A stretch of 31,562 nt of DNA, taken from a virus (lineage: Duplodnaviria > Heunggongvirae > Uroviricota > Caudoviricetes). The first letter of the stretch is position 1. Each line of letters opens with the position of its first letter. Below the pieces are notes generated by a model. The model was not told where the DNA came from. It saw only the letters and a list, made by a program, of their open reading frames with translations, and ran no database searches. Location: IMG/VR virus record IMGVR_UViG_2645727555_000016, positions 1 through 31,562 of that record; one strand, 5' to 3'. Of the stretch, positions 1 to 31,562 are shown piece by piece. The translations under genes and the position numbers were made by a program.

Positions 1-1
1 G

Positions 2-94
2 CAGAAAAAGCTTATTATGCTTCCATCGGAAACGATGATCTGGCAGCCTGAGTTCACAGATAAAACACTCTCCAGGAAACCCGGGGCGGTTCAG
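2..94. repeat. Left copy of a 93-bp perfect terminal inverted repeat; exact reverse complement of 31470..31562
   Basis: Manual reverse-complement comparison of the window ends: positions 2..94 match the reverse complement of 31470..31562 at every base; identity breaks at position 95 and at position 1. Confidence 0.85.
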
Positions 95-238
95 GTAGCA
101 CGACAGAATCCGGCGATACAGAAAGCATATGGAACAATGCCGCTCAACGGATGAAAGCAATCGCGCTTGAGACTATCGCTCAAGAGAAACGCCCTGGCGG
201 ATCACTCAACCCAAACACTCAACGTAACTAACTATCGA

Positions 239-256
239 CTGCCCCGACCGGGGCAG
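239..256 (+). other. Short GC hairpin (CTGCCCC-GACC-GGGGCAG) just upstream of the M-like gene; weak terminator candidate with no clear U-tract
   Basis: 7-bp perfect stem with 4-nt loop read directly; followed by TCTC only. Confidence 0.3.
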
Positions 257-273
257 TCTCACAAGGATGTGAG

Positions 274-609
274 ATGGAAAGACAAACGTTTAATTGGTAT
301 CCAGATTACGAATCTGAAAAGAGCGTAAAACCGAATGTAACGGTACTTAATTTTGGTGATGACTACGAGCAGCGACAGGCTCAAGGTCTTAATCGTATTA
401 AAGAAGAATGGTCGTTAACCTTTACCAGATTATACAACGAAATTAATGCAATCGATGACTTCCTGACTGAGCGATCAGGCGTTGAATCGTTCTATTGGGT
501 TAATCCAAGAGGCAAGCAGATTGTAGTTGTATGTGACAGTCATACGGTCAAGCGATATCAGGGGTACTGTGTCTTAACTGCTACATTCAGACAAGTATTT
601 GAGGCTTAA
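274..609 (+). CDS. Phage minor tail protein M-like (lambda gpM-like)
   Basis: 111-aa ORF immediately upstream of L/K/I/J homologues; size and position match the lambda M-L-K-I-J order; RBS-like AAGGATG upstream. Confidence 0.7.
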   Translation: MERQTFNWYPDYESEKSVKPNVTVLNFGDDYEQRQAQGLNRIKEEWSLTFTRLYNEINAIDDFLTERSGVESFYWVNPRGKQIVVVCDSHTVKRYQGYCVLTATFRQVFEA

Positions 610-616
610 GCATCTG

Positions 617-639
617 GATAAGTAAGTACTAATTTACTA
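617..639 (+). promoter_or_regulatory. Conserved intergenic motif GATAAGTAAGTACTAATTTACTA (instance 1 of a recurring GATAAGTAAGTAC family), 53 bp upstream of the L-like start
   Basis: Near-identical 13-mer cores recur in the same orientation at 13064, 18110 and 23613, each upstream of a gene start. Confidence 0.45.
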
Positions 640-691
640 TTATTGTGGCGCTGACAGGATGTTAGCGCCTACTTATTTCAAGGATGAAACA

Positions 692-1390
692 ATGGGAATT
701 AAAGCTGATATTCAGAGCTTATCTCCCTCTGCACTCATTGAGTTGTTCGTATTGGATATGTCGAACACAACTTCAGGGGGGAAGCTATTCTTCCACGCCG
801 GAACAAACGAACTGATGCAACCGGTCGTCTGGCAAGGAGTGACATACGAGCCGTGGCCAATCAAAGCATCAGGCTTTGACAAAACTGGCCAGGGAACGTT
901 GCCACGTCCAAAAATTCAGGTATCGAACTTTGCCGGAACCGTCTCTGCGGAAGTTCAGGCGAACGATGATCTTGTTGGCTGCCGCATTATTCGCAAGATG
1001 ACGCTGGCTCGCTTCCTCGATGCCGTTAATTTTAAAGACGGCAACCCAACAGCAGATCCAAACCAACATTTCCCGGATGAAATGTGGTTTATCGAACAGA
1101 AAACTCTCGAAACTCATCAGGTTGTCGAGTTTGAATTGTCCAGTGTGTTCGATTTGATGGGGGTGCAACTGCCGTATCGTCAGATCATTAAAAACACCTG
1201 CCCGTGGAAATACCGAGGGCCAGAATGCGGCTATACCGGTCCATATTTCGACAAAAATAACCAGCAGACGTCTATGTCTGGTGCGGATTACTGCACAAAA
1301 CGTTATGACGCCTGTAATGCGCGTCGGAATTATTTTGCCGACGGTGTGATCCATTTTGGCGGATTTATTGGAGCTACGCGGTATGGGTAA
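692..1390 (+). CDS. Phage minor tail protein L-like (lambda gpL-like)
   Basis: ORF 659..1390; likely true start ATG 692 (MGIKADIQ) preceded by AGGA RBS; position between M-like and K-like genes. Confidence 0.8.
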   Translation: MGIKADIQSLSPSALIELFVLDMSNTTSGGKLFFHAGTNELMQPVVWQGVTYEPWPIKASGFDKTGQGTLPRPKIQVSNFAGTVSAEVQANDDLVGCRIIRKMTLARFLDAVNFKDGNPTADPNQHFPDEMWFIEQKTLETHQVVEFELSSVFDLMGVQLPYRQIIKNTCPWKYRGPECGYTGPYFDKNNQQTSMSGADYCTKRYDACNARRNYFADGVIHFGGFIGATRYG

Positions 1391-2180
1391 TAAAGCAATC
1401 CATGAGCTTGGCTCTGACGTTATGCAGCAAATCTATCTCTGCGCCATAAATCGCTACCCTAATGAAGCGTGTGGCTTTCTGGTTAGAACTAATGGCGACA
1501 AATATCGCTTTATGGAAGCGCGGAATGTTTCGGAGAACCCGCAGAACACTTTTGTAATGCACGTTGACGACATTATGGCGGCAGAGGATGCGGGTGATGT
1601 TATCGCAATCTGGCATTCACATACTGATGAATCAGCAGAGGCATCTGATGCCGATCGTGCAGGCTGCGAAGCGACGGAAGTTCCGTGGATGATTCTGGCT
1701 ATTCGCAAGAATGTTGAGGGAGATGCCCCTTTCCATTTTAGCGAGATGAATGTGATCACTCCTGATGGTTTCGAAATGCCATACCTGGGCAGACCGTATG
1801 TATTTGGCGTATTCGATTGCTGGATGTTGTGTCGGGACTATTTGAAGCGTGAGTTTAACGTCGAACTAAACCCGAACGCACACCTGCATATTCCATCGTG
1901 GTACACCGGCGATAACGACATTCTCGATCAGAACTACCGTAACGAGGGATTGGTGCGTCTTGCGCCCGGAACAGAGCCTCAACGTGGGGACGTATTCTTT
2001 ATCCAATACGGGAAAATGCCTGACCACTGCGCGGTTTATATCGGCGATGGAATGATTCTTCATCACCAGATCGACCGCCTAAGTTGTCGTGCTTATTACG
2101 GCGGAATGTATCAGAAACATACGACGCATCACTTGCGTCACAGAGACTTGCTCAAGGGAGATGAGACGTGTCTGAGTTAG
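1383..2180 (+). CDS. Tail assembly protein K-like (JAB/MPN metalloprotease domain plus NlpC/P60 cysteine peptidase domain)
   Basis: JAMM motif HSHTDESAEASDAD (HxH-x7-S-x2-D) preceded by a conserved Glu (NEACGFLV); NlpC/P60-like Cys (FDCWMLCRDY) and downstream His (PDHCAVYIGDGMILHH); start uncertain (1356/1383/1422). Confidence 0.8.
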   Translation: MGNKAIHELGSDVMQQIYLCAINRYPNEACGFLVRTNGDKYRFMEARNVSENPQNTFVMHVDDIMAAEDAGDVIAIWHSHTDESAEASDADRAGCEATEVPWMILAIRKNVEGDAPFHFSEMNVITPDGFEMPYLGRPYVFGVFDCWMLCRDYLKREFNVELNPNAHLHIPSWYTGDNDILDQNYRNEGLVRLAPGTEPQRGDVFFIQYGKMPDHCAVYIGDGMILHHQIDRLSCRAYYGGMYQKHTTHHLRHRDLLKGDETCLS

Positions 2181-2758
2181 TTCATGTGCAGCTTGGCGGC
2201 CCTATGGCCAAACATTTTGGCCGCCACTGGCATCTAAAGGTGCGTAATACAAAACAGGCTCTGGATTTAATTGAGGCCAACAAGCCTGGGTTTAAAGCAT
2301 GGATGAAGCGCAATATCAAAACCTATGACAGATACCACATCCAGATCACCAATAAACAGGGCCACAAGTGGTCTGTGGACGAGAGTGAATATCAGATGAT
2401 GGGGCAGTCTGACAATATTGCAAAAATCCGCATTACCCCTGTTCCGCGAGGAAGTGGTGGATCTGCTTTTGGATGGTTTCAGACGGTTGTTGGAGCAGTA
2501 TTAATGGTTGCCTCGATATGGGTGCCCGCTCTTGCGCCTCTCGGTTTGTCACTGATGATGGGCGGTATAGCGCAAATCATATCTCCGCAAGCCACTAACG
2601 AAAGTGTGAGGCAGGCGGATAACTCGAACTCTTATTACTTTGATGGACCTCAAAACACAACAAACCAGGGGAACCCTGTACAGCTTATCTATGGCGAGGA
2701 AATTTTAGTTGGCTCACAGGTCGTGAGTTCTTCTATCACCATCGACCAGCTTATGTAA
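2168..2758 (+). CDS. Tail assembly protein I-like (lambda gpI-like)
   Basis: 196-aa ORF between K-like and J-like genes with a hydrophobic central segment; overlaps the K-like stop as in lambdoid tail modules. Confidence 0.7.
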   Translation: MSELVHVQLGGPMAKHFGRHWHLKVRNTKQALDLIEANKPGFKAWMKRNIKTYDRYHIQITNKQGHKWSVDESEYQMMGQSDNIAKIRITPVPRGSGGSAFGWFQTVVGAVLMVASIWVPALAPLGLSLMMGGIAQIISPQATNESVRQADNSNSYYFDGPQNTTNQGNPVQLIYGEEILVGSQVVSSSITIDQLM

Positions 2759-2769
2759 TCAAGGATTTT

Positions 2770-5700
2770 TTGGACATGGAACAGTTCAAGAAGAAAAAAT
2801 TACCGCTTCTTATTGCCGGTGCTGGTGGCAAGAAAAGTAAAAGCTCCAGCCGTACCCCGGTTGAAGCTGATGATACTGTCAATTCTCGTGCTATGGCAGC
2901 CATCCTCGACCTTCTTGGCGAGGGGGTTATCGGTGGCCTGGTAAATGGCGCAAAGTCGATCTTCATCGACGATTTACCGATCTTGAATGAAGATGGCTCT
3001 TCCAACTTCAGCGGTATTACATGGGATTTTCGTGACGGCTCACAAGATCAGACGCCAATGGCTGGTTTTGATTTTGTCGAAACGCCTAAGTCCGTAAATA
3101 TTCAGCTTAAAAAAACACACGACGTTACGGTTTCAATCGATAACGATGAAGCTGATCGCGTTCGTGTCATCATGAAATTCCCCTCTTTACGTAGCGTTGA
3201 TAAAAGCTCTGGCGATACAAATGGCACTACGGTGAAGTACAAATTCCAGATCGCCAACGCAGACGCAACATTTTCTGATGTAGTGGCAGAAGGTGAGAAA
3301 AGCGTTGATATCACGCTAACGGCAAAGAAAACCGGCGTGTATTACCGTAGCTATGAGCTGAAACTGCCTAAGCCTGGTCGTGCATACAAGGTTAGGGTGA
3401 TTCGTCTTACAGATGATAATAGTAGCCAGTACCTCTACAACGACACATGGGTTGATTCCATCGGTGAGATTGTCGACACGCCAATGAACTACCCTAACTC
3501 TGCTCTTGTTGGCTTGAAGGTCAATTCAGAGCAGTTTGGTAGCACAATGCCTTCCCGTTCGTATTTGGTGCGCGGTATCAAAATCCGAGTACCGTCAAAC
3601 TACAACGAATACACCAATACTTATGTCGGCGTATGGGACGGTACTTTTAAGCTGTTGTCTTCTTCAAACCCTGCGTGGATTCTCTACGATTTGCTTACCA
3701 ATACTCGGTATGGTCTTGGGCAATTTGTGTCGGAATCCATGATTGACCTCGGCCAGCTCTACCAGATTGGTCGATATTGTGACGAAGAGGTCGATGATGG
3801 CTTTGGGGGTAAAGAGAAACGCTTTGCAATCAATACGCAGATCACCAGTCGACAAGACGCATACCGATTAATTCAGGATATTGCCGGTGCATTCCGCGGC
3901 ATGGTGTTTTGGGCTGGTGGCATGGTTAACATCATGCAGGATAGCCCATCAGATCCGGTAATGATGTTTACCAACTCCAACGTCAAAGATGGACTGTTTA
4001 CCTATAAAGGTTCTGCGCGTAAAGATCGCCCATCCGTTGCGCTCGTAACCTACAACAACAAGGAGGACGGTTATAAGCAAAATATCGAGTACGTTGAAGA
4101 TCAGGACGCAATGCGCCGTTATGGTGAGCGTAAAACAGAAGTCGTAGCATTTGGATGTACAAGCCGAGGCCAGGCTCACCGAGTTGGTTTGTGGCTTTTG
4201 TATACCGCCAGAATGGAGTCGGATGTAATTACATTTACTGCCGGCTTAGACGCCTCATTTCTGATGCCCGGTGAAACCGTTCTGATTCAGAACAAATATC
4301 GTGCAGGTAAACGTAACTCCGGTCGAATTGTGGAGTTTACCAAAAACAGCATCACTCTCGATGCGCCTGTGTCGTTAGCTAAAAGCGGCAGCTTTATTCG
4401 GATATTGAATCAGGAAGGCAAAATCGTTGAACGCGATGTTCTTGAAACTGGCGAAAACATAACAAAGGTTACGTTTTCAAAAGCCCTGTCGTCAGCGGAA
4501 ACGCCTGTTTTGAACGGTGTCTGGACAATTACAGAACCAGATCTCGAACCTATGCGCGTTCGCATCGTTAACATCGCACAGGGGGAAACGCCGGGTAGCT
4601 TTGACATCACCGCTGTTGAGAACAATCCGTCTAAATATGAGGCAATCGACAATGGTGCAACGCTGATCCCGCAGAATACGACGGTATTGGACCCAACTTA
4701 CTCCAAGCCATCTAATCTGCAAATCACTGAAGGGACTTATCTCTCAAGCCCGGGCAACCTGTCAGTAAAACTGACTGCAACATGGGAAGGGAAATCTCCA
4801 GAGTATTGGATCAGTTGGCGACGTTCTGATGAAAACAATGTATCGAACTGGCAATCGGCGCGTGTAACCGAAGAGCAATACGAAATCGTTAATGTCGCGG
4901 AGAATGGACGCTACGACTTCCAGCTGTATGCGGTTTCATTCAACGGTAAAAAAACAGAGATTATCAGTACCGTTTATCAGGTGTTGGGCACAATGACACC
5001 GCCGGATGCCCCAACGTCATTAACGGCCGTTGGAGACTATCGTAATGTGATACTGAATTGGGTTAATCCAGATTCGGTAGACCTTGATCACATTAATGTT
5101 TACGCATCCCAGACCAACAATCTGGATACGGCGAAACTGATCGCAGAGTCTGCAAGCACCACCTTTACACATGCTGGTCTTGGGGATAGCGAAACGTGGT
5201 ATTACTGGGTTCGAGCATCGAACAAGCGAGGTATGTTAAGTCCTCCGAACTCAAACTTGGGTACAGAGGCGACAACTCGCGATGTACTGTCGTTCCTGAC
5301 TGGCAAAATTACATCTTCCGAGCTTGGTCAGGCTCTGCTTGAGGACATCAACAGCAAAGCCTCTCAAGAAGCAGTTGACGAGTTAAATGAGCATATCAAC
5401 CAGAGCGTCGAATCTTTGGAGGGGGCGGTAAACGACGTTAAGGAAGATATAGCTGAATTAGATAAGCAGTTCAGCGATAACCTCGCGGATTTTGAAATAA
5501 AATTCAACGAGCGTAGCGATGCTTTGGAGAACGCACAAACCGAGCTTAAAGGTGAGGTTTCGGCAACGATCGACAAGGTCAATGAAGCGTTTGAAAAAAT
5601 TGATGCTACTGATGCTGCAATTGTTGAAATCGAAAACACCGTATCTGAACACGATAAAGCTCTCGCTAATACAGTCGAGGCAATAAAGGCTGCAAGAGAT

Positions 5701-7500
5701 GAAGCGGCGGCTCTTATTGCTAAGGAAAGCGAGGCTCGTGTTGAAGGCGATGCTGCAAACGCTAAACAACTGGAAGTGTTGCAGTCAACGGTAGAGGAAA
5801 GCTCCGCTGCCGTTGAAGAAATGAAAAAGACGGTTGCAGAGGTCGATCGTGCCAGTGCAGAACTGACTACGAACATTGAGGCGTTAGCCAAAACAAATAT
5901 TGACTTGGCTCTTCGTCAAGATGAAGACCAGCACAAGCAGATGGTCAATAACGCGAAGATCGCAACAACACAGAAAACCTTTGCTGATGATATGTCTGCA
6001 ATGGCCACGAAGGTTGAGGAAATTCGCGTAGAAATTGGCGAAGACATTAAGGCCAGTATTCTGGAAGAGTCCACCGCTCGTGCCGATGGCGATGAAGCGT
6101 TGGCAAAGCGTGTCACTCAGCTGCAATCTAAGTTTGAAGGAGATATCAGCGCGGCGATTAGTACAGAGCAGGAGGCTCGTACATCTGCCGATGAAGCTCT
6201 GACGACACAGATCACTCAGCTTGAGTCGAAAGTAAGCAACGATATCGTCGCAGCTATTAAGGAAGAGCAAGAAGCCCGAGCAACGGAAGATTCGGCTCTG
6301 GCAAGCCAGATCACACAACTTCAGGCAAAGGTTGATGATGATATTTCTGCTGCAATACGTAGTGAGCAGGAGGCCCGAGCAAGCGGGGACTCTGCGTTAG
6401 CCAAACAAATAAACCAGCTTCAGTCAAAGGTTGACGGTGATATATCCGCTGCCATCACTCAGGAGCAGGAGGCCAGAGCAAGTGCTGACCAGGCGCTCTC
6501 ACGAGAAATTAACAGCCTGCGAGCACAAACCGGAACTGATATTGCCGCAGCGGTTGCTGTAGAGACAAAAGCAAGGACTGATGCCGATAGTGCATTGTCT
6601 ACCCAGATTACGTCTCTTACAGCAAAAGCTAATGATCTCGAGGCGTCTCTTGCCAGAGAAACAACGGCTCGTGCAGATGGTGATACCGCTTTAACAAAAG
6701 AGGTTTCAAGTTTAAAAGCACAGACAGCGAAAGATATTAGTGCGGCCGTTGCAGTTGAAACGCAGGCTCGAACTGATGCTGACTCGGCGTTGTCGTCTCA
6801 GATCACCAAGCTGACCTCTCAATACAAAGAGGATATTAAAGCGGCTGTAGCAACCGAAACGAAAACGCGTACAGAGCAAGATGCTGCATTGGCGACTCAA
6901 ATCACAAACTTAGAGTCTCAAACGGCAGCCAACATTTCCGCGGCGGTAACAACTGAAACGACAGCGAGAACGCAGGCAGATAATGCTCTGAGTGGGCGAA
7001 TCGATACTCTGAAAGCAGAGGTGGATGGAAATACCGCGACAATTCAACAGCAGGCAACAGCTATTGCTGATACCAACAAAAAAGTATCAACCGCGTGGAC
7101 GTTGAAAATGGAGACTTCAACGAGCGGAGGGCAGAAGTATGTTGCCGGTATTGCGCTTGGTATTGACACCACTGGGCTATCTCAGTTTTTGGTTCAGGCG
7201 GACAGGTTTGGTTTGGTCAACTCTGTTAACGGGAAGATCACAACGCCATTTGTTATCGAAAACAGTATCGCCTATATGAATGGAGCGTATATCAAGGATG
7301 GCACAATCACCAATGCAAAAGTAGGCGATCTGCAATCTACCAATTTTGTTAGCGGTAGATCTGGATGGCGGTTCGGCAAAAATGGAACGCTTGAGATCAA
7401 CGGTAATAGCGGCGGCAATGGGCGATTGGTTATAAATGGTCAGCGGATTGACGTTTATGACGATAACAACGTCTTACGAGTAAGAATTGGCCGTCTGTGA
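2770..7500 (+). CDS. Central tail fibre / host specificity protein J-like (lambda gpJ-like), enlarged to 1576 aa by an internal coiled-coil repeat array
   Basis: N-terminal region shows gpJ-like conservation (e.g. ...SGITWDFRDGSQDQTPMAGFDF...); large size; position after the I-like gene; fibronectin-III-like segment and C-terminal distal domain. Confidence 0.85.
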   Translation: MDMEQFKKKKLPLLIAGAGGKKSKSSSRTPVEADDTVNSRAMAAILDLLGEGVIGGLVNGAKSIFIDDLPILNEDGSSNFSGITWDFRDGSQDQTPMAGFDFVETPKSVNIQLKKTHDVTVSIDNDEADRVRVIMKFPSLRSVDKSSGDTNGTTVKYKFQIANADATFSDVVAEGEKSVDITLTAKKTGVYYRSYELKLPKPGRAYKVRVIRLTDDNSSQYLYNDTWVDSIGEIVDTPMNYPNSALVGLKVNSEQFGSTMPSRSYLVRGIKIRVPSNYNEYTNTYVGVWDGTFKLLSSSNPAWILYDLLTNTRYGLGQFVSESMIDLGQLYQIGRYCDEEVDDGFGGKEKRFAINTQITSRQDAYRLIQDIAGAFRGMVFWAGGMVNIMQDSPSDPVMMFTNSNVKDGLFTYKGSARKDRPSVALVTYNNKEDGYKQNIEYVEDQDAMRRYGERKTEVVAFGCTSRGQAHRVGLWLLYTARMESDVITFTAGLDASFLMPGETVLIQNKYRAGKRNSGRIVEFTKNSITLDAPVSLAKSGSFIRILNQEGKIVERDVLETGENITKVTFSKALSSAETPVLNGVWTITEPDLEPMRVRIVNIAQGETPGSFDITAVENNPSKYEAIDNGATLIPQNTTVLDPTYSKPSNLQITEGTYLSSPGNLSVKLTATWEGKSPEYWISWRRSDENNVSNWQSARVTEEQYEIVNVAENGRYDFQLYAVSFNGKKTEIISTVYQVLGTMTPPDAPTSLTAVGDYRNVILNWVNPDSVDLDHINVYASQTNNLDTAKLIAESASTTFTHAGLGDSETWYYWVRASNKRGMLSPPNSNLGTEATTRDVLSFLTGKITSSELGQALLEDINSKASQEAVDELNEHINQSVESLEGAVNDVKEDIAELDKQFSDNLADFEIKFNERSDALENAQTELKGEVSATIDKVNEAFEKIDATDAAIVEIENTVSEHDKALANTVEAIKAARDEAAALIAKESEARVEGDAANAKQLEVLQSTVEESSAAVEEMKKTVAEVDRASAELTTNIEALAKTNIDLALRQDEDQHKQMVNNAKIATTQKTFADDMSAMATKVEEIRVEIGEDIKASILEESTARADGDEALAKRVTQLQSKFEGDISAAISTEQEARTSADEALTTQITQLESKVSNDIVAAIKEEQEARATEDSALASQITQLQAKVDDDISAAIRSEQEARASGDSALAKQINQLQSKVDGDISAAITQEQEARASADQALSREINSLRAQTGTDIAAAVAVETKARTDADSALSTQITSLTAKANDLEASLARETTARADGDTALTKEVSSLKAQTAKDISAAVAVETQARTDADSALSSQITKLTSQYKEDIKAAVATETKTRTEQDAALATQITNLESQTAANISAAVTTETTARTQADNALSGRIDTLKAEVDGNTATIQQQATAIADTNKKVSTAWTLKMETSTSGGQKYVAGIALGIDTTGLSQFLVQADRFGLVNSVNGKITTPFVIENSIAYMNGAYIKDGTITNAKVGDLQSTNFVSGRSGWRFGKNGTLEINGNSGGNGRLVINGQRIDVYDDNNVLRVRIGRL
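6070..7020 (+). repeat. In-frame tandem repeat array (about 11 units of roughly 81-84 bp, i.e. 27-28 aa) inside the J-like gene, encoding Ala/Glu/Gln-rich coiled-coil repeats
   Basis: Protein repeats of the form D[IV]SAAI..EQEARASADxAL..QI.QLQSKV seen back to back; antisense ORFs here are repeat artefacts. Confidence 0.7.
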
Positions 7501-7533
7501 TGGTGGAAAAAAAATTTTATATCGGTAAAAATA

Positions 7534-7553
7534 GGTGAGTATTTACTTAATGG
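7534..7553 (+). promoter_or_regulatory. Palindromic variant of the GATAAGTA motif (GGTGAGTA-TT-TACTTAAT) about 40 bp upstream of the tail-fibre gene, followed by GC hairpin GGCGGGC-N7-GCCCGCC
   Basis: Imperfect inverted repeat of the GTGAGTA/TACTTAA half-sites read directly; resembles the palindromes at 26286 and 22704. Confidence 0.35.
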
Positions 7554-7593
7554 CGGGCAAGGATAGCCCGCCAAATCAAGGAGCATATTCAAC

Positions 7594-22584: not shown

Positions 22585-22703
22585 AGACCTAAGCCTTGTG
22601 TGTTTAACGTATTAGTTAAGTGAAATCATATAGAAGTGACCTGACAGCTACAACTGGACAAGATTAAGAGCATTTTTTATAAACGAAACTAAACGCCTAC
22701 ATT

Positions 22704-22724: not shown

Positions 22725-22767
22725 ATTTCTGTAAGAATATGCTCGACAAAGGAATTGAGGAACCTTT

Positions 22768-23562: not shown

Positions 23563-23579
23563 GCCTTGATAAACCATTT

Positions 23580-23601
23580 AGCCCCCTGGTGGGGCTTTTT
23601 T
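23580..23601 (+). terminator. Rho-independent terminator (AGCCCC-CTGGT-GGGGCT followed by TTTTT)
   Basis: GC stem and T-tract directly after the stop of ORF 22768..23562. Confidence 0.65.
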
Positions 23602-23612
23602 AAACTGCGCTC

Positions 23613-23635
23613 AATAAGTAAGTACACGACTACGG
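23613..23635 (+). promoter_or_regulatory. Conserved intergenic motif AATAAGTAAGTACACGACTACGG (instance 4), immediately upstream of the 23644 start
   Basis: Core AATAAGTAAGTAC plus ACnnCTAC segment, as in instances 2 and 3. Confidence 0.45.
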
Positions 23636-23643
23636 TTAGAAGC

Positions 23644-24108
23644 ATGTCCACAAAAACAGATTTGTCGAAAATCCCGTCTATCTCCGGAAACAACGGTTAT
23701 TCGCTGCGCTGTCAGGAAGTGAAGATCAACGGCCATGAGGCCCATTGCAGCTATACAGTCTGCCAGCACACCATCCTCGCCTACAAAGAGAAGCGTCTCC
23801 CAGCGACATCGTTCCAGTCCTGCGCTGCGGCCATTGCTGCTGGAAAATGCCAGGCGCTGAAGATGATGGTCGAAGAGATCCGCAAAGGCGAACAGCTCTA
23901 CTTCATCGATATGGCTGCGCTTATCAAAGAAGTGGAAGAGCAAAACGACCACGCCAGAACGCTTACCCGGAAGCGCAACACCATGACGATTCAACGCACG
24001 AAGAAAACAGAACCAGCCAAACCCGAAACCACGTCCACCGATTCACTGGCGCCTGTCACTGACGTGTACGCGGCACTCATTGAAGAAGCAACCAAAGAAA
24101 ACACATGA
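23644..24108 (+). CDS. Hypothetical protein (Cys-containing; possible nucleic-acid-binding)
   Basis: ORF 23566..24108 overlaps the terminator; the likely start is ATG 23644 (MSTKTDL). Confidence 0.4.
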   Translation: MSTKTDLSKIPSISGNNGYSLRCQEVKINGHEAHCSYTVCQHTILAYKEKRLPATSFQSCAAAIAAGKCQALKMMVEEIRKGEQLYFIDMAALIKEVEEQNDHARTLTRKRNTMTIQRTKKTEPAKPETTSTDSLAPVTDVYAALIEEATKENT

Positions 24109-24142
24109 AAACTCCCGAGCGACCGATGGAGGTTAAACACTA

Positions 24143-25465: not shown

Positions 25466-25641
25466 TGCTCGGCTGGATGATTGCATTTTTAGCGGTTGGT
25501 TTTTTAATCGGTATTGTGGTGATGTCCAGTTGCATCAATGACTACATTAAAAGCGGTGTTATAGAACGACGCGGTCGTATTTATCGCATTGTAGAAATAA
25601 CCCACACAGTGAAGGAGATTAAGGATGATCGTATTAAGTAA
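25462..25641 (+). CDS. Small membrane protein (59 aa), not in the supplied ORF track; paralogue of 25837..25989
   Basis: ATGA overlap with the ligase stop; N-terminal TM MMLGWMIAFLAVGFLIGIVVM followed by GRIYRIVE, parallel to GKRVYRVV in the paralogue. Confidence 0.4.
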   Translation: MMLGWMIAFLAVGFLIGIVVMSSCINDYIKSGVIERRGRIYRIVEITHTVKEIKDDRIK

Positions 25642-25840
25642 ACGGGAGAAGGAAACGCTTCATGAAATCAGTAAGTGGCCGGAGTTCCCTGAGTACTGGA
25701 AGCCTAAAACGCGAGCTAAGTTAGAGCGTTTAGGGTTGGTTGCAAACGTTTCTGAAACGAAGTGTTCGGCCAACTACCAGTTAACTGATAAAGGGAAAGT
25801 ATTGCTACAGCAATTAGTAGAATCAGGAGCGTTAAAATGA
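25625..25840 (+). CDS. Hypothetical small protein
   Basis: 71-aa ORF; overlapping start and stop with neighbours (translational coupling). Confidence 0.4.
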   Translation: MIVLSKREKETLHEISKWPEFPEYWKPKTRAKLERLGLVANVSETKCSANYQLTDKGKVLLQQLVESGALK

Positions 25841-25989
25841 TTCCATACATCTCATTAGCTTTTATGGGTGGCTTCCTTATTGGCTTCGGCATCTGTCGTG
25901 ATTTAATTAAGCAGGAACTTAAAACCAAAACACTGTGCATCGGAAAGCGTGTGTATCGGGTAGTTCATGAAACAAAGGTTAGAAAATGA
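25837..25989 (+). CDS. Small membrane protein (50 aa), not in the supplied ORF track; paralogue of 25462..25641
   Basis: ATGA overlap with the upstream stop; TM MIPYISLAFMGGFLIGFGI followed by a basic tail. Confidence 0.4.
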   Translation: MIPYISLAFMGGFLIGFGICRDLIKQELKTKTLCIGKRVYRVVHETKVRK

Positions 25990-26276
25990 GCAATTTAACT
26001 TCTTGGGACTGGTGGTTGGCCACCTATTTCTTAGCGGCCGGAGTCGCATTCGCCTTTTACGTAGGTCAGTTAGTCGTAAAACTGTTGCTGATTAAATTTG
26101 CTAGTCATAAACGTATCGATGATGGTCTGTGGCGTCTTGGCACCCTGGTGGAAACTCGCTACGGGCAACTTAAGGAGAACGAAACCATTACTATCCAAGC
26201 GAAACGATTCACTGCCACCATCACAAGAACACCTAGTCGTAGAGTGGCATTGATCAAAAAAGTCACAACCGAATAA
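25986..26276 (+). CDS. Small membrane protein
   Basis: 96 aa; N-terminal TM WWLATYFLAAGVAFAFYVGQLVV; ATGA overlap with the upstream gene. Confidence 0.4.
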   Translation: MSNLTSWDWWLATYFLAAGVAFAFYVGQLVVKLLLIKFASHKRIDDGLWRLGTLVETRYGQLKENETITIQAKRFTATITRTPSRRVALIKKVTTE

Positions 26277-26285
26277 AAATACAAT

Positions 26286-26307
26286 GATAAGTATTTACTT
26301 ACTTATC
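26286..26307. promoter_or_regulatory. Perfect palindrome GATAAGTA-TT-TACTTACTTATC built from the same GATAAGTAAGTA unit as the recurring motif; operator-like
   Basis: The right arm is the reverse complement of GATAAGTAAGTA; lies at the start of a gene-free structured region upstream of the tRNA cluster. Confidence 0.45.
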
Positions 26308-26666
26308 TTTTATGTATAAGATGACTTTGTTTTCGTTGAGACGCGACTGTTTGAACTTAAATACAAGTGCAAACGAAGAAGTCTATCTGGCAGTAGCCTA
26401 ATAAGCCAAACACCAGCGAGGTCAGTTTCCAGCCTCGTTACCGAAATGGGACACACTGAGCGAGTGTGATTGCAGAACGCAGGAGGGAACATTCATGTTC
26501 CCTCTGATGAAGTAACAGAATGGGCGGTCGTTATATTTTCAACTCAATATGACTCCCGGATTCTTAGCCACTGACCGCCCATCCTGTTACGTCATTTTGT
26601 TCAATTATGTCGTTTATACTGGGTTAAAAAGCGGCGGCGTAGCCCGGCTGGTATGGTTAGCCAGCA

Positions 26667-26788
26667 CACAACGTTGAGGCCATTACATTTTTATCAATTC
26701 TAAGGTTCTATTCACAGAGATACCGGCGAGCGTTGATATGTAACATGTTGGGCAAACATTCAATCGGAGTAGTGGCCTCAACGTTGTG
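26667..26788. repeat. Hairpin element A: 16-bp perfect inverted repeat (CACAACGTTGAGGCCA / TGGCCTCAACGTTGTG) flanking about 90 nt
   Basis: Arms 26667..26682 and 26773..26788 are exact reverse complements; arms share CTCAAC..TTGTG with elements B and C. Confidence 0.6.
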
Positions 26789-27052
26789 AAGACAGGATTG
26801 TTGTGTAGGTTTAACCACTGTTGCCATTGGTGCCTGTTTTCACAACAAATGATTCCATACATCACATTGTATAAATTACAAAGTAGGTGCTGTCCTCAGA
26901 AACATCATCTACTTAAAGATTTTGCCTTCTATTGAGCGAAGTCGAAAACGTCTGGCACTAACGAAAAGTGCAAGTAGCGGTGCGTTTATTGGCAAAAACT
27001 AACACCGCCGCGATTGGCACTGTTGAGTAATAAATACTGGCAGTGCTGAATT

Positions 27053-27127
27053 GATGGTGTAGCTCAGCGGTAGAGCAGTTGGCTGTTAACCAACTGGTCG
27101 GTGGTTCGAATCCACCCACCATCGCCA
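27053..27127 (+). tRNA. tRNA-Asn (anticodon GTT)
   Basis: Manual fold: acceptor GATGGTG/CACCATC, D-stem GCTC/GAGC, anticodon stem GTTGG/CCAAC with loop CTGTTAA, T-arm GGTGG-TTCGAAT-CCACC, discriminator G, encoded CCA. Confidence 0.75.
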
Positions 27128-27132
27128 ATTTA

Positions 27133-27219
27133 GGGGAGTTAGTCCGTAGAGGTAGCGGTGTAGACTGTAAATCTACTGTCATGGCGACTCGGGTGGTTCG
27201 ACTCCATCACTCCCCACCA
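27133..27219 (+). tRNA. tRNA-Tyr (anticodon GTA), class II with long variable arm
   Basis: Acceptor GGGGAGT/ACTCCCC, anticodon stem GTAGA/TCTAC with loop CTGTAAA, variable arm with GTC/GAC stem, T-arm GGTGG-TTCGACT-CCATC, encoded CCA; D-arm is non-canonical. Confidence 0.55.
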
Positions 27220-27223
27220 AATT

Positions 27224-27299
27224 GCCGGTTTAGCTCAGTTGGTAGAGCAGTCGCTTTGTAAGCGAATGGCCAGCGGTTCAAGTCCGTTAACCGGCACCA
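27224..27299 (+). tRNA. tRNA-Thr (anticodon TGT)
   Basis: Acceptor GCCGGTT/AACCGGC, D-stem GCTC/GAGC, anticodon stem GTCGC/GCGAA (one mismatch) with loop TTTGTAA, T-arm AGCGG-TTCAAGT-CCGTT, encoded CCA. Confidence 0.7.
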
Positions 27300-27304
27300 A
27301 CATA

Positions 27305-27395
27305 ATATTGAGAACATTGGCGTAACGGGGTCATATCCCAATCTATGAATAAATGTTGCGTTGCCGCGTGACAACCAGTGTTCTCAACATTGTGG
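27305..27395. repeat. Hairpin element B: imperfect inverted repeat (ATATTGAGAACATTGG / CCAGTGTTCTCAACATT) between tRNA-Thr and tRNA-Ser
   Basis: Two mismatches in a 16-17-bp repeat; shares the CTCAAC..TTGTG arm signature with elements A and C. Confidence 0.5.
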
Positions 27396-27494
27396 TGAAT
27401 GCACAGGCTGATGTGCCGCAACTACAGTAGTGCGCGCTTTGCGGGGCTTGCTACAACCCTGTGTCGGAGATCAGCACCGACCACCACAATCACT

Positions 27495-27581
27495 GGAGAG
27501 TAGGGAGCATGGTGCTCAAGCGGTCTTGAAAACCGTCCCATTGCGCAAGCGATGATGGTTCGATTCCATTACTCTCCGCCA
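27495..27581 (+). tRNA. tRNA-Ser (anticodon TGA), class II with long variable arm
   Basis: Acceptor GGAGAGT/ACTCTCC, anticodon stem GCGGT/ACCGT with loop CTTGAAA, long variable arm, T-arm GATGG-TTCGATT-CCATT, discriminator G, encoded CCA; D-arm slightly irregular. Confidence 0.55.
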
Positions 27582-27584
27582 GAC

Positions 27585-27660
27585 ACAGCGTTGAGCGGTT
27601 TGGCCTTTTAATCACCCAGATTAAGACTCCGCTAACATAAACCAGACCGCTCAACGCTGT
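27585..27660. repeat. Hairpin element C: 16-bp perfect inverted repeat (CACAGCGTTGAGCGGT / ACCGCTCAACGCTGTG) immediately 3' of tRNA-Ser
   Basis: Arms 27585..27600 and 27645..27660 are exact reverse complements; same arm signature as elements A and B. Confidence 0.6.
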
Positions 27661-27735
27661 GATAGACAATTACGGCAGACGTTCTTAACCATAGCTTGCT
27701 AACATCCTAGCAACACTTTTTTCAGCGCAAAATTC

Positions 27736-27758
27736 AAAGGGGCTTCGGCCCCTTTTTT
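27736..27758 (+). terminator. Rho-independent terminator (GGGGC-TTCG-GCCCC followed by TTTTTT), likely ending the tRNA transcription unit; A-tract upstream may allow bidirectional use
   Basis: Perfect GC stem with tetraloop and 6-T tract read directly. Confidence 0.7.
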
Positions 27759-27885
27759 ACTGGGTTGACTCCAGAATATTTCCAGGTATGGTTTTACCAC
27801 TTTTGGGTCTTCATTTAGCAACGGCAGCATTAGACTGCCTGCATGTGGGTGACAGGATGTGGCAGAAAAACATGGAGATAAGCCA

Positions 27886-28440
27886 ATGAATAAGCGCAAC
27901 CTCAATATTCTTGCCTCTCTGGTAATCATGCTCGCTCTGACGGGATGTAACGAATCGGAGATCGACAAAATTACCTTAATAGGTAGAGATAAAAGCGATC
28001 TTGCACAGAACTATAAAGCCCAGTTCCAAGAGCAAACACCCAGTATTGAGGTATTCGCTCTTCAAGATAAAAATGCACCGAATGAACAGGAACCACATAC
28101 GCATGGAAATCTCATTGATGGAAAGGTTGAATCGTCTTTAACGACAAATGTCGGTAAGTATACGTTCATGCAGATCGGTGAAATGATGACAAGGGAGTAC
28201 GGAAAACCGGTAGCAACGAAAGACAGAATTTTCGACCAAGAAGCTATCTCAGGTATGGACTGTATTGAGACAAAGACCTGTGGTGCAGGCAAGTATTATG
28301 AAGTCTATCGAGGGAAGGATCGTTTAGTAATGGTGATTAACGGTGCAGGCTTTGTGAACGAAAAAGAGGGTGTAACATTGCTTTCTATCACCGATAAGAT
28401 GATTAAAGTTTCACGCTTGAAAGAAGACAAACGCAAATAG
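27886..28440 (+). CDS. Lipoprotein (secreted or outer-membrane), cargo-like
   Basis: ORF 27859..28440; likely start ATG 27886 after GGAGA; signal peptide plus lipobox MNKRNLNILASLVIMLALTGC. Confidence 0.5.
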   Translation: MNKRNLNILASLVIMLALTGCNESEIDKITLIGRDKSDLAQNYKAQFQEQTPSIEVFALQDKNAPNEQEPHTHGNLIDGKVESSLTTNVGKYTFMQIGEMMTREYGKPVATKDRIFDQEAISGMDCIETKTCGAGKYYEVYRGKDRLVMVINGAGFVNEKEGVTLLSITDKMIKVSRLKEDKRK

Positions 28441-28454
28441 CAAATAGCCATAGA

Positions 28455-28982
28455 TTGTTTAACACTGCGAGGTTAAATGTGAGTAACAGAGATGATTTTT
28501 CCCCATCGGTGAAGCGAACACTAGCCGAACGCGTAGGCTGGAAGTGCTCTTATCCTAGCTGCAACCAGACAACTGTAGGTCCAGATAGCAGCAATACAAA
28601 CGGCAGGATTAATAATGGTATTGCGGCCCATATTACAGCAGCAGCGCCAGGTGGACCGAGATATGATCATAGCTTAACCCCAGAACAGCGAAGCTCGATT
28701 GATAACGGTATATGGATGTGTCGTTCACATGCCGCACTCATTGATTCTGACAAATATGCCTATTCCGTTGAGCAATTAAAAAACTGGAAGACACTGGCCG
28801 AAACTCAGCAATCTTTACTGCTTCAAATGGCGCACCAGGTGAGCCAGAATAATTACTCAGAAAGAGACGTCGATGTTCTAAAAGCTATTACTGATATTTT
28901 TAATTATAACTACCTCCAAATGCTGAAGAGCGAACCGTTCCGGGCAAAAGGTTCATGGTTAACCAACTGGTCAACCCTCTAA
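28455..28982 (+). CDS. HNH/His-Me-finger-like protein candidate (start uncertain; ORF track start is TTG)
   Basis: Cys pair CSYPSC, then AAHITAA and NGIWMCRSHAALID, resembling a C-x-C...H...N...H nuclease arrangement; 3' end overlaps the recombinase ORF. Confidence 0.3.
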   Translation: MFNTARLNVSNRDDFSPSVKRTLAERVGWKCSYPSCNQTTVGPDSSNTNGRINNGIAAHITAAAPGGPRYDHSLTPEQRSSIDNGIWMCRSHAALIDSDKYAYSVEQLKNWKTLAETQQSLLLQMAHQVSQNNYSERDVDVLKAITDIFNYNYLQMLKSEPFRAKGSWLTNWSTL

Positions 28983-29797
28983 TATTGGATGGCAAAATTG
29001 TTATGGGCCGCCGCGTTTTCTCTCTGATGAAGCAGTTCCTTAGCTGGTGCGCCTTCCAGGGGATGATAGACGTGTCACCGTTAAACGATATGTCACTAAA
29101 CAAAGTTGCCGGTGGCGCAAAGCCCACACCTCGCGAGCGGAAGCTGACCGACGCAGAGGTATGGGTGTTCTGGAATATATGGGACTACTTCAATGTGTGC
29201 GCTGGTACAAAATGGGCGGCCAGGCTGTGTCTTGTATCAGCAAGACGACCTGACGAAGTACTGCGGGCTAAAAAAAGTGAGTTCAATCTTAAGCGTGGGG
29301 TTTGGAATCAAGGCAAAAGAAACAAGTCAGCACGTGAGCATTCGCTGCCTTTAAGCACATTAATGCGCACATGCATTGAAGAGTTGTTCGAATACGGTAA
29401 AGACAGCCAGTGGCTCGTGCCTTCGAATAAAAAAATCGGGAAAGACCTTCCTATGTCTAAAGTGGCAATATCCCAGGCATTACGTCGTATTCTGGAACGA
29501 CCAGAACTGATGGAGCTTGAGCCATTTACACCCCGAGATTTGCGCCGTACTGCGCGTAGTTACTTCCCAGCATTAGGCATAAGCCAGGAGGTATCACGCA
29601 AAATTATGAACCACAGTCTTGAGGGGATAGATCGGGTCTACGACCGGCACGATTATATGGACGAGATGCGAGACGCCTTAGAAAGTTTCTCGACGTACAT
29701 CGCATCAATCGTAGAGCAACCGGATTTAGACGAAATTGACCACAAATTCAAGGGAGATCGTCTATCAACAGAGCTTATTCGTGTAAATTTTTCATAG
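28955..29797 (+). pseudogene. P4-type tyrosine recombinase/integrase, N-terminally truncated (catalytic domain only); probable remnant
   Basis: C-terminal signature PFTPRDLRRTARSY...IMNHSLEGIDRVYDRHDY resembles P4-family integrase boxes (R...HxLRRT...H...Y), but Arg replaces the usual His in HDLRR and the roughly 100-150-aa N-terminal arm-binding region is absent. Confidence 0.55.
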
Positions 29798-30178
29798 AGA
29801 CTTTATGGCCTCAACAACCTTTTGTGATGCGCCTTTCTCTTTACCGAATCGCTCGTTATATGCAGCAAGAACCTGTTTTTCGTCCTCGTTAAGAGGAGCG
29901 GTGCCTTCTTTGTATAAAAATGCTGCGAGTTCAGGTTGGCGTTCTTCCAGCACCATCATCATTAGACGACTTGGCTCAATACCCAGCGCCAGCGCCAACG
30001 GACGAACCTTATCGATAGGCAAAGGAATTTTGCCACTTTTAATTAAAGAAAGGTTGTTGGCATTTTTATAACCAATAAGTCTGGCTATTTGGGCCTGACT
30101 CATAGGTGAGGATTCAATCAGCCCTGCGATAAAAGCAGCATAGCGACTTTCTATAAATTCAATCTTGTTGTCAGACAT
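29792..30178 (-). CDS. XRE-family helix-turn-helix transcriptional regulator (Cro/CI-like)
   Basis: HTH segment SQAQIARLIGYKNANNLSLIKSG near the N-terminus; 128 aa; divergently oriented to downstream + strand genes, with a palindrome in its upstream region. Confidence 0.6.
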   Translation of the reverse strand: MSDNKIEFIESRYAAFIAGLIESSPMSQAQIARLIGYKNANNLSLIKSGKIPLPIDKVRPLALALGIEPSRLMMMVLEERQPELAAFLYKEGTAPLNEDEKQVLAAYNERFGKEKGASQKVVEAIKSL

Positions 30179-30209
30179 TGTTACAACCTTTGCGCGTTTA
30201 ATTCTCTCT

Positions 30210-30223
30210 GGTAAGTGCTTACC
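30210..30223. promoter_or_regulatory. Palindromic operator candidate GGTAAG-TG-CTTACC, 32 bp upstream of the XRE regulator start
   Basis: Perfect 6-bp inverted repeat; the GGTAAGT half-site matches the core of the recurring motif. Confidence 0.4.
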
Positions 30224-30428
30224 GATATTACATCAAAGGTTAGGGTTGTAAAGCTATTATCATTTTTTCGGCAGGCACTTGTAAGACCGAGCAAAGGTCC
30301 ATGCATGGAGAAAAACTAGCCCAAAATAGGTAAGAAAATTAACTTGCATCTGATATAGATGCATTCAGTATTGATACAAATTTTAGTAGTATTCCTTACC
30401 ATAGTATAAGTTAGAATGGATTGATTGA

Positions 30429-30641
30429 ATGAAAACCACTATTTCCAACCTAATCGCTCTTGAGATCGGACACGTACAGAAATTAGCTGATGAGTGTGTA
30501 GCTGACATCCTCACCGATCTACCGAATGAGCAGATTCAGGTTGGTGTGAATGACACAACTGGCTTTATATTCGAACTTAACAACAAACGCTTCACGCTTC
30601 TCAATACCGGCTCCGGGTCTTTAGCCGTCAGAATCTGTTAA
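30429..30641 (+). CDS. Hypothetical small protein
   Basis: 70-aa ORF downstream of the divergent regulatory region; followed by 9-bp inverted repeat CTGCGCGAA / TTCGCGCAG. Confidence 0.35.
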   Translation: MKTTISNLIALEIGHVQKLADECVADILTDLPNEQIQVGVNDTTGFIFELNNKRFTLLNTGSGSLAVRIC

Positions 30642-30739
30642 CCCCTCTTCTCCCTGCGCGAATGGCTTAGTTCCCTGTTCGCGCAGTGCTACATTAAACA
30701 CACTAGTAAATAATTTGTTTTCATAACAAAGGATTAGCC

Positions 30740-31510
30740 ATGTCTAAAAAACGTTCCATCAAAGAGGTTCAGGACTTCCGTGACAGTGTAAAACGAGTAG
30801 TCGCTCTCCTTTCAGGTAAAAACATCCCTGTTGCAGAACGAGGGGACGACGCTTATGTACGCTATAGCGATGATGGAGAGCCAATTCTCGTAAACATCCC
30901 ATCAATCCCGGATAACGCAACACCGGCATTGATGAATGCTGTGCGCGGATTTCTCGATCATGAGGTTGCTCACATTTTGTTTACCGATATTCGTGTGTCC
31001 AACAAAATGAGAGAAAAAGGACGCGTTCCTTCCTGGTCACTATGGAATGCCTTAGAAGACGTGTTCATCGAGCGAAAAATGGGGCAGGTCTTTAACGGAA
31101 CGAGACGTAATCTGATGGCAACTCAGCGCCTTATAATCGAAAAAGTCTTTAAACCAAAGGCTTCAGAGGCTATTGCTTATTGTGGCAAAGATCAGCGCGC
31201 GCTTTTTCTAAACTTCTTTCTCTGTCCGGTTGCAAGAGCCTGGGATGGCCAAGCACCGTTCGTAGATTTCATGGATGAATACTGGCCTGTCATTGAGAAA
31301 CCAATTTCATTATTAAAAGAACATGGTATCGATGTGGCCGTGCGTAACATGTCTTGCACCGAGGATTGTGTAAAGGTGGCTGCGACCATAGCTAAGATCC
31401 TCAAAGACACTGAAAGTGAAAGCAAAGGTAAGGAGTCAGCTCCGGGAAAAACTTCCGATCCTTCAGACGCTGAACCGCCCCGGGTTTCCTGGAGAGTGTT
31501 TTATCTGTGA
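30740..31510 (+). CDS. Hypothetical protein with HExxH motif (possible zinc metallopeptidase-like); last 41 nt lie inside the terminal inverted repeat
   Basis: Motif DHEVAHILFTD contains HEVAH; RBS AAGGA upstream; 256 aa. Confidence 0.4.
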   Translation: MSKKRSIKEVQDFRDSVKRVVALLSGKNIPVAERGDDAYVRYSDDGEPILVNIPSIPDNATPALMNAVRGFLDHEVAHILFTDIRVSNKMREKGRVPSWSLWNALEDVFIERKMGQVFNGTRRNLMATQRLIIEKVFKPKASEAIAYCGKDQRALFLNFFLCPVARAWDGQAPFVDFMDEYWPVIEKPISLLKEHGIDVAVRNMSCTEDCVKVAATIAKILKDTESESKGKESAPGKTSDPSDAEPPRVSWRVFYL

Positions 31511-31562
31511 ACTCAGGCTGCCAGATCATCGTTTCCGATGGAAGCATAATAAGCTTTTTCTG
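31470..31562. repeat. Right copy of the 93-bp perfect terminal inverted repeat (reverse complement of 2..94)
   Basis: Manual reverse-complement comparison; see the left copy. Confidence 0.85.

What the first reader, a model, noticed from the sequence alone, without database searches (positions are those of the whole stretch)
1..31562. Window is bounded by a perfect 93-bp inverted repeat that overlaps coding sequence
Positions 2..94 are the exact reverse complement of 31470..31562, and the repeat stops within one base of each window edge. The right copy contains the last 41 nt and stop codon of ORF 30740..31510; the left copy lies inside an open frame (2..154) upstream of the M-like tail gene. 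The window also begins at M with no tape-measure, head or terminase genes. Possible explanations are a large invertible segment, the inverted terminal repeats of a linear replicon, a rearrangement junction, or an assembly artefact (hairpin or chimeric contig).
Basis: seen in the sequence. Interest (0 to 1): 0.65.

Follow-up and report, generated by a model that had tools for sequence, protein, structure and literature searches.

The report
Contig ends in two IS629 copies
The "terminal inverted repeat" is the last ~92 bases of a common jumping gene (IS629), inserted twice in opposite orientations in an E. coli-type phage-plasmid; the draft assembly broke there, so the finding is ordinary.

Summary
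In detail: 2..94 is the perfect reverse complement of 31470..31562. It is not a replicon end or a dedicated invertible segment. The window is one whole scaffold (DF970351.1, 31,562 bp) of the draft assembly GCA_001297725.1, so its edges are contig ends. Window 1..93 and 31471..31562 are the right (orfB-proximal) end of IS629, an IS3-family insertion sequence. Its terminal sequence occurs in 4,127 of 5,426 complete E. coli genomes, up to 51 times per genome. The innermost base pair of the repeat (94/31470) is flanking DNA that matches by chance. The interior (94..31470) is colinear with a 29-31 kb internal stretch of circular 100-115 kb SSU5-like phage-plasmids. One IS copy cuts the tape-measure gene 45 codons before its stop. 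The other cuts a CobT-related gene after codon 244 of 702, which creates the chimeric ORF 30740..31510. Head, terminase and tape-measure genes are missing because they lie beyond the IS copies on other contigs. Two inverted IS copies could allow inversion by homologous recombination, but short reads cannot show this. No ORF resembles an invertase, protelomerase or protein-primed polymerase. Any "ITR-complete genome" call on this contig would be a false positive. Interest is low.

The parts
1..93 (+). Right (orfB-proximal, IRR) end of IS629 copy A. The rest of the IS lies beyond the left contig end. It holds the last 16 codons plus stop of orfB (1..51) and the ~25-nt terminal inverted repeat (69..93, ending ...GGTTCA).
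   Evidence: 100% match over 1..94/95 to IS629 in Stx phages. The annotated IS629 of phage 1717 ends at the position aligned to window 93, and its orfB stop aligns to window 49-51. IRL differs from this sequence after ~25 nt.
94..231 (+). 3' remnant of the tape-measure gene: the last 45 codons plus stop, cut off from its 5' part by IS629 copy A.
   Evidence: The translation GSTTESGDT...NTQRN* is identical to the C-terminus of the 1,522-aa tape measure protein of pCMZE123_2. The native site is ...catagtgac|ggtagcac.... Homology to relatives starts exactly at window 94.
274..11901 (+). Lambda-like tail-tip module: M (274..609), L (659..1390), K (1356..2180), I (2168..2758), J/TipJ (2770..7500) and a tail fibre (7594..11901).
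   Evidence: Pfam hits are Phage_min_tail, Phage_tail_L, NLPC_P60+Prok-JAB, Phage-tail_3/Phage_Tail_Tip, and Gp34_trimer+Peptidase_S74; I (2168..2758) has no Pfam hit. The order matches the annotated pCMZE123_2, which also supplies the tail assembly protein name for I.
11962..30641 (.). Plasmid and replication part of the phage-plasmid: ParA-like ATPase (16122..16790), DnaB-like helicase (18927..20267), primase (20277..21530), ATP-dependent DNA ligase (24143..25465), four tRNA genes (27053..27581), 5'-truncated tyrosine integrase (28955..29797), HTH regulator (29792..30178, minus strand) and many small ORFs of unknown function.
   Evidence: Pfam scans, tRNAs, colinearity with finished plasmids and the integrase comparison.
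30740..31510 (+). Chimeric ORF. Codons 1-244 of a 702-codon CobT-related gene (30740..31470) are fused to 12 codons plus a stop read from the IS629 end (31471..31510).
   Evidence: BLASTP is identical to the pCMZE123_2 CobT-related protein up to residue 244 and then diverges. Pfam CobT hit. The native site is ...cagacgc|tgaccagac....
31471..31562 (-). Right (IRR) end of IS629 copy B, in the opposite orientation to copy A. The rest of the IS lies beyond the right contig end.
   Evidence: Reverse complement identical to window 2..93. BLAST against the IS629 of phage 1717 aligns positions 1219..1311 to 31562..31471.

Best explanation
The window is one complete contig of a draft bacterial genome assembly. 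It carries a 31.4-kb internal piece of an SSU5-like phage-plasmid of the E. coli type. In the real molecule this piece lies between two copies of the insertion sequence IS629 (IS3 family; it moves through a circular copy and makes a 3-4 bp target duplication). The two copies are in opposite orientations, each with its right end facing the segment. One copy landed in the tape-measure gene and the other in a CobT-related gene, and both genes are truncated. IS629 is longer than the reads or k-mers and is repeated, at least twice here and probably many more times in this genome. The assembler therefore could not pass it, and stopped about one k-mer (92-93 nt) inside each copy. The two retained stubs are the same IS end in opposite orientation, so the contig appears to have perfect inverted terminal repeats. 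Shown: the identity of the stubs, both gene truncations, colinearity with circular relatives, and that the window is a whole contig. Inferred: that both stubs belong to full-length IS629 copies, that the rest of the plasmid is on other contigs, and that the stub length reflects the assembler's k-mer.
For: The repeat is exact and far beyond chance. Window 1..93 is the last 93 nt of IS629, including the orfB stop, as annotated in phage 1717 and Stx phages. Both ends are the right end, because the left end of IS629 diverges after ~25 nt. The IS end occurs in 4,127 of 5,426 complete E. coli genomes, with a median of 3 and a maximum of 51 places per genome, and in about 3,000 PLSDB plasmids. The exact-protein look-up of the chimeric ORF returns one contig, DF970351.1 of GCA_001297725.1, with length 31,562, equal to the window. 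The window has no Ns. The interior is colinear at 95-98% identity with circular 100-115 kb phage-plasmids; 22 genomes cover at least 80% of window 94-25000. Homology to relatives begins at window 94 and ends at 31470-31473. The tape-measure remnant and the CobT truncation are shown. A finished relative, pRM9975-1, carries at least five IS629/IS1203 copies in both orientations, including an inverted pair around ~21 kb. The IS629 target duplication of 3-4 bp comes from PMC3271280, and the circular-intermediate mechanism from the abstract of bioRxiv 10.1101/2023.06.07.543989.
Against: Only 92-93 nt of each IS copy are on the contig, so full-length copies, target duplications and the rest of the plasmid were not seen. 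No other assembly in any searchable collection carries either junction, so the structure could not be confirmed in a finished genome. The assembler and its k-mer size are unknown.
Confidence: 0.93

Rival explanations
1. The two inverted IS629 copies make the 31-kb segment flip by RecA-dependent homologous recombination, or the arrangement arose from an IS-mediated inversion. This adds to the best explanation rather than replacing it: the repeats are still IS copies.
For: There are two copies of the same IS end in inverted orientation about 31 kb apart. The segment would carry IRR junctions at both ends in either orientation, so a short-read contig looks the same for both isomers (inference). 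IS-linked large rearrangements are reported in the literature (abstract of PMC11708052).
Against: There is no direct evidence. Nothing in the contig records orientation relative to the rest of the plasmid. No invertase is present, and the only recombinase is a 5'-truncated tyrosine integrase. An inversion would have no obvious regulatory consequence, because both flanking genes are already broken.
Confidence: 0.15
2. The repeats are the true inverted terminal repeats of a 31.5-kb linear phage or plasmid genome.
For: A perfect inverted repeat sits at the very ends of the record.
Against: The repeat is the end of an IS found in thousands of genomes. Genes are cut at both junctions. The segment lacks head, terminase and most tape-measure genes, and equals an internal third of circular 100-115 kb relatives. 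No ORF resembles a protelomerase, terminal protein or family-B polymerase. The arms are offset by one base at the left edge.
Confidence: 0.01
3. The contig is an assembly artefact, such as a hairpin or fold-back or a chimera of unrelated DNA, and one or both junctions do not exist.
For: It comes from a draft assembly, and the repeat coincides with the contig ends.
Against: The interior is colinear with many finished plasmids with no fold-back. The two junctions lie at two different native sites about 29-31 kb apart. Each is a clean IS-end/target junction ending in the canonical ...GGTTCA. The only artefactual feature is where the contig stops.
Confidence: 0.03
4. IS629-segment-IS629 is a composite transposon that moves the 31-kb tail and replication module as one unit.
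For: Two IS copies in inverted orientation bracket the segment.
Against: The segment sits in its native context. Its outermost genes are truncated halves of genes that are intact and in the same order in relatives. This is what insertions into the plasmid predict, not a segment moved elsewhere. The junctions occur in no other record. The outer ends would both be left ends, which from my own knowledge of IS2/IS3-type asymmetry would be a poor substrate; this was not tested.
Confidence: 0.02

Closest known systems
IS629 (isoforms IS1203 / IS3411), IS3 family, as found in E. coli O157:H7, other STEC and Shigella
   Same: The terminal 92-93 nt are 100% identical to IS629 copies in Stx phages. They include the end of orfB and the TG...CA-type terminus. 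Insertion into and truncation of phage genes is typical of this IS (PMC3271280; abstract of PMC9943667).
   Different: Only the right-end stubs are on the contig. These two insertion sites (tape-measure and CobT-related genes of an SSU5-like phage-plasmid) appear in no other searchable record.
SSU5-like phage-plasmids of Enterobacteria (Salmonella phage SSU5, Escherichia phages Cyrano, CMS-2020a and PhiR41_1, plasmids such as pCMZE123_2 and pRM9975-1)
   Same: Gene order and 95-98% DNA identity (80% to SSU5) hold from the tape-measure 3' end through the tail tip, replication genes, tRNAs and integrase to the CobT-related gene.
   Different: This is a 31-kb fragment, not a 100-115 kb genome. 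Two genes are interrupted by IS629. The tail fibre differs, and a variable module replaces the integrase 5' end.
Repeat-induced contig breaks, and false 'ITR-complete' calls, in short-read assemblies
   Same: The contig stops about one k-mer into a multicopy repeat at both ends. When the two repeat copies are inverted, the stubs form a perfect terminal inverted repeat.
   Different: Nothing differs; this is the textbook case. The one-base asymmetry (93 versus 92 nt of IS) and the chance match of the first flanking base are small details.
Site-specific invertible segments of phages (Mu G / P1 C with Gin/Cin)
   Same: Inverted repeats flank DNA that includes tail-fibre genes.
   Different: Those segments are 3-4 kb, have ~26-34 bp recombination sites and an adjacent serine invertase. 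Here the repeats are IS ends, the segment is 31 kb, and no invertase is encoded.

Membership tests
IS629 / IS3 family insertion sequence | Characteristic terminal sequence (5'-TGAACCGCCCCGG..., TG...CA ends) and ~25-nt imperfect terminal inverted repeats | tested here: met
   Both window ends read TGAACCGCCCCGGGTTTCCTGGAGAG... inward to outward, identical to the right end of annotated IS629. IRL and IRR agree over ~25 nt and then diverge.
IS629 / IS3 family insertion sequence | orfA/orfB with a programmed -1 frameshift encoding a DDE transposase; full length about 1.31 kb | not testable with these tools
   Only the last 16 codons of orfB (AEKAYYASIGNDDLAA*) are on the contig. The rest lies beyond the contig ends, and the other contigs of the assembly could not be retrieved.
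IS629 / IS3 family insertion sequence | 3-4 bp target-site duplication flanking each copy (PMC3271280) | not testable with these tools
   Only one side of each copy is present. The predicted duplications are GGT(A) for copy A and (A)CGC for copy B, from the native sites.
IS629 / IS3 family insertion sequence | Multicopy, at varying sites among genomes | tested here: met
   The IS end is found in 4,127 of 5,426 complete E. coli genomes, up to 51 places per genome, on chromosomes and plasmids. There are two copies in this contig alone.
Inverted terminal repeats of a linear replicon | The repeat is specific to the replicon termini and bounds a complete genome with its own end-replication machinery (terminal protein plus PolB, or protelomerase) | tested here: not met
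   The repeat is a ubiquitous IS end. Genes are truncated at both junctions. The segment is one third of circular relatives. No such proteins appear in the Pfam scans.
Site-specific invertible DNA segment (Gin/Cin/Hin type) | Short specific recombination sites plus an adjacent serine invertase (or a dedicated tyrosine recombinase); alternative gene ends within the segment | tested here: not met
   There is no resolvase or invertase domain in any ORF scanned. The only recombinase is a 5'-truncated tyrosine integrase that relatives without the IS copies also carry.
Composite transposon | The IS-flanked unit is found as a block in a foreign context, with a target duplication around the whole unit | tested here: inconclusive
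   The segment's end genes are halves of genes that are contiguous in relatives, which argues for in-situ insertions. The DNA beyond the IS copies was not available.
SSU5-like phage-plasmid | Colinear lambda-like tail module plus plasmid-type replication and partition genes, tRNA cluster, integrase and CobT/AAA pair, on a ~100-115 kb circular replicon | tested here: met
   Gene content and order are met for the part present. Replicon size and circularity were not observed for this strain.

The most novel reading that the evidence does not exclude
The pair of inverted IS629 copies is not only incidental damage. It turns the 31-kb tail and replication module into a unit that flips by recombination, or is mobilised as a composite element. 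That would allow exchange of tail and host-range modules between phage-plasmids in IS629-rich (STEC/Shigella-type) hosts.
Probability: 0.03. Interest if true: 0.35.

Novelty: already known. Interest (0 to 1): 0.07.

Why it matters
The value is mainly practical. A perfect inverted repeat at contig ends is used by virus-completeness tools as evidence of a complete linear genome. Here it would wrongly label a 31-kb fragment of a ~100-115 kb phage-plasmid as complete. Biologically it records two IS629 insertions, in the tape-measure gene and a CobT-related gene. These probably cripple this phage-plasmid as a phage, in line with the known role of IS629 in degrading prophages. No new mechanism is implied.

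Tried and rejected
I searched for either junction in several collections. 300-400-nt queries went against RefSeq complete E. coli genomes and PLSDB plasmids. Exact 40-mers went against IMG/VR, GTDB species representatives and, for the left junction only, metagenome contigs. None holds a junction, so the full structure could not be read from a finished molecule. A literature search for the assembly and scaffold accessions found nothing, so strain and assembler remain unknown. The exact-protein look-up returned only the window's own contig. The other contigs of the assembly could not be reached, because look-ups are limited to proteins of this window or proteins returned by the large homology search. 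I judged that search not worth its cost for a question already answered. The linear-replicon, invertase-driven and chimera readings were considered and rejected, as set out under the rival explanations.
Full report
**Observation.** Window 2..94 is the exact reverse complement of 31470..31562: 93 nt, 100% complementary. With 46.6% G+C, about 8e-48 such pairs are expected by chance in 31.5 kb, so the repeat is real. The right arm reaches the last base of the window and the left arm starts at base 2.

**What the repeat is.** A megablast of the left 6 kb against phage records gave two kinds of match. Window 94..6000 matches SSU5-like phage-plasmids: Escherichia phages CMS-2020a, Cyrano and PhiR41_1 at 94-95%, and Salmonella phage SSU5 at 80%. 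Window 1..94/95 separately matches, at 99-100%, more than a hundred Stx-converting phages at places annotated "IS629" or "transposase OrfB of IS629".
- In phage 1717 the IS629 element is annotated as a 1,311-bp mobile element with orfA and orfB.
- The window's first 93 nt align to its last 93 nt. The orfB stop falls on window 49-51, and the element ends ...GGTTCA at window 93.
- Frame 1 of the window starts AEKAYYASIGNDDLAA*, the C-terminus of OrfB.
- The left end of IS629 resembles this sequence only over the ~25-nt terminal inverted repeat and then diverges. Both window ends are therefore the same (right, orfB-proximal) end, in opposite orientations.
- Base 1 is also IS sequence, so the left stub is 93 nt (1..93) and the right stub 92 nt (31471..31562).
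- The innermost pair of the reported repeat (94 g / 31470 c) is flanking DNA that matches by chance. The next pair does not match.
- No other IS629 sequence lies inside the window.

**How common it is.** The same IS end occurs in 4,127 of 5,426 complete E. coli genomes, with a median of 3 and up to 51 places per genome, on chromosomes and plasmids. It also occurs in about 3,000 PLSDB plasmids, mostly from Escherichia, Shigella and Salmonella.

**What the window is.** ORF 30740..31510 is a fusion protein, so an exact-sequence look-up is a fingerprint of the right junction. It returned a single contig: NCBI assembly GCA_001297725.1, record DF970351.1, length 31,562 bp, identical to the window. 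The window edges are therefore contig ends of a draft assembly. The sequence has no Ns.

**The junctions.**
- Left junction: in the finished circular plasmid pCMZE123_2 (108,575 bp) the native sequence reads ...gtccatagtgac|ggtagcacgacag... inside a 1,522-codon tape-measure gene. Window 94..231 encodes the last 45 residues plus stop of that protein, identical to the relative. IS629 copy A therefore sits 135 nt before the tape-measure stop codon, with the IS body to the left of the contig.
- Right junction: the native sequence reads ...ccttcagacgc|tgaccagacgg... inside a 702-codon CobT-related gene. The window ORF is identical to that protein to residue 244, then continues with 12 IS-encoded codons and a stop. 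Pfam CobT hit.
- The native sequence happens to continue "tga", like the first three bases of the IS. This is why BLAST flank alignments run to 31473.

**The interior.** Window 94..31470 is colinear with finished 100-115 kb circular phage-plasmids. Twenty-two complete genomes cover at least 80% of window 94-25000 at 96-98.5% identity, and the right part matches Cyrano and CMS-2020a up to 31473. The genes are:
- tail genes M, L, K, I and J, and a long tail fibre;
- a ParA-like ATPase, a DnaB-like helicase, a primase and an ATP-dependent ligase;
- four tRNA genes (Asn, Tyr, Thr, Ser);
- a tyrosine integrase, an HTH regulator and the CobT-related gene.

Nothing resembles a serine invertase, protelomerase, terminal protein or family-B polymerase. 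The missing head, terminase and main tape-measure genes are simply what lies beyond IS copy A in relatives.

**Mechanism.** IS629 is an IS3-family element. It transposes through a circular intermediate (abstract of bioRxiv 10.1101/2023.06.07.543989) and duplicates 3-4 bp at its target (PMC3271280).

Two insertions in opposite orientation into one phage-plasmid account for both junctions. A short-read assembler cannot cross a 1.3-kb repeat that is present at least twice. It stops roughly one k-mer inside each copy, and the two stubs form a perfect terminal inverted repeat.

The stub lengths fit a de Bruijn graph with a vertex length near 93. The two junctions share 93 nt because the first flanking base also matches, and one end carries a single extra base. 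This detail is inference, because the assembler is unknown.

A finished relative shows the same biology resolved. pRM9975-1 (120 kb, circular) has at least five IS629/IS1203 copies in both orientations within 40 kb, including an inverted pair around ~21 kb. A short-read assembly of that plasmid would yield contigs of just this kind.

**Rivals.**
- True ITRs of a linear replicon are excluded by the ubiquity of the repeat, the cut genes, the partial gene content, the circular relatives and the lack of end-replication genes.
- A dedicated invertible segment is not supported, because there is no invertase and the sites are IS ends.
- Inversion by homologous recombination between the two IS copies is possible and cannot be tested here. 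The segment would have right-end junctions on both sides in either orientation, so only reads spanning a whole IS can tell.
- A hairpin or chimera is unlikely, given the colinearity and the two clean, different insertion sites.
- A composite transposon is unlikely, because the end genes are halves of genes that are contiguous in relatives.

**Limits.** Only 92-93 nt of each IS copy are visible. Full-length copies, target duplications (predicted GGT(A) and (A)CGC) and the remainder of the plasmid were not seen. Neither junction exists in RefSeq complete E. coli genomes, PLSDB, IMG/VR or the GTDB representatives, and the left junction is absent from metagenome contigs. The strain and assembler could not be traced.

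**Verdict.** It matters only as a warning against reading terminal inverted repeats on draft contigs as genome ends, and as a record of two IS629 insertions that probably disable this phage-plasmid. Interest is about 0.07 and the novelty rating is "already known".

Noticed in passing
window 27760-29797: The tyrosine integrase ORF (28955..29797, 280 aa) is 100% identical to residues 88-367 of the 367-aa integrase of pCMZE123_2. Upstream of about 28948 the DNA is unrelated. The first 87 codons are replaced by a different module holding two ORFs with no Pfam hit (27859..28440 and 28455..28982), so the integrase is probably N-terminally truncated.
   Followed up: partly
window 27053-27581: A cluster of four tRNA genes (Asn-GTT, Tyr-GTA, Thr-TGT, Ser-TGA). 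The same set is annotated in related phage-plasmids, and it has 80-96% DNA matches to tRNA regions of unrelated E. coli phages such as N4-like phages, D6 and Ro157c2YLVW.
   Followed up: partly
window 7594-11901: The tail-fibre ORF of 1,435 aa contains four diverged copies (69-75% identity) of a 77-nt unit (9691, 9811, 10840, 11239). It has Gp34_trimer and Peptidase_S74 (intramolecular chaperone) domains. It is much longer than the 886-aa fibre of pCMZE123_2, and this region accounts for much of the part of the window that relatives do not cover.
   Followed up: no
window 31471-31473 and native site in L003 (about 3726-3730): The native CobT-related gene continues 'tga' right after the insertion point, the same as the first three bases of IS629. 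Alignments to relatives therefore overrun the junction by 3 nt. Likewise the first flanking base is the same at both junctions, which lengthens the apparent repeat from 92 to 93 nt.
   Followed up: yes
L004 (pRM9975-1, NZ_CP028433.1 1829-42139): A finished plasmid of the same family carries at least five IS3-like IS1203/IS629 transposase genes within 40 kb, in both orientations, plus a GNAT/DUF1778 toxin-antitoxin pair and a YafO toxin that are absent from the window. The IS load of this plasmid family in some strains is high.
   Followed up: partly
window 17146-17949 and 21532-22584: Variable accessory ORFs. One is a DUF2971 protein (17146..17949) where pCMZE123_2 has nothing annotated and pRM9975-1 has a GIY-YIG protein. 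The other is a 350-aa minus-strand ORF with no Pfam hit, at the position where relatives annotate a tetratricopeptide-repeat protein.
   Followed up: no
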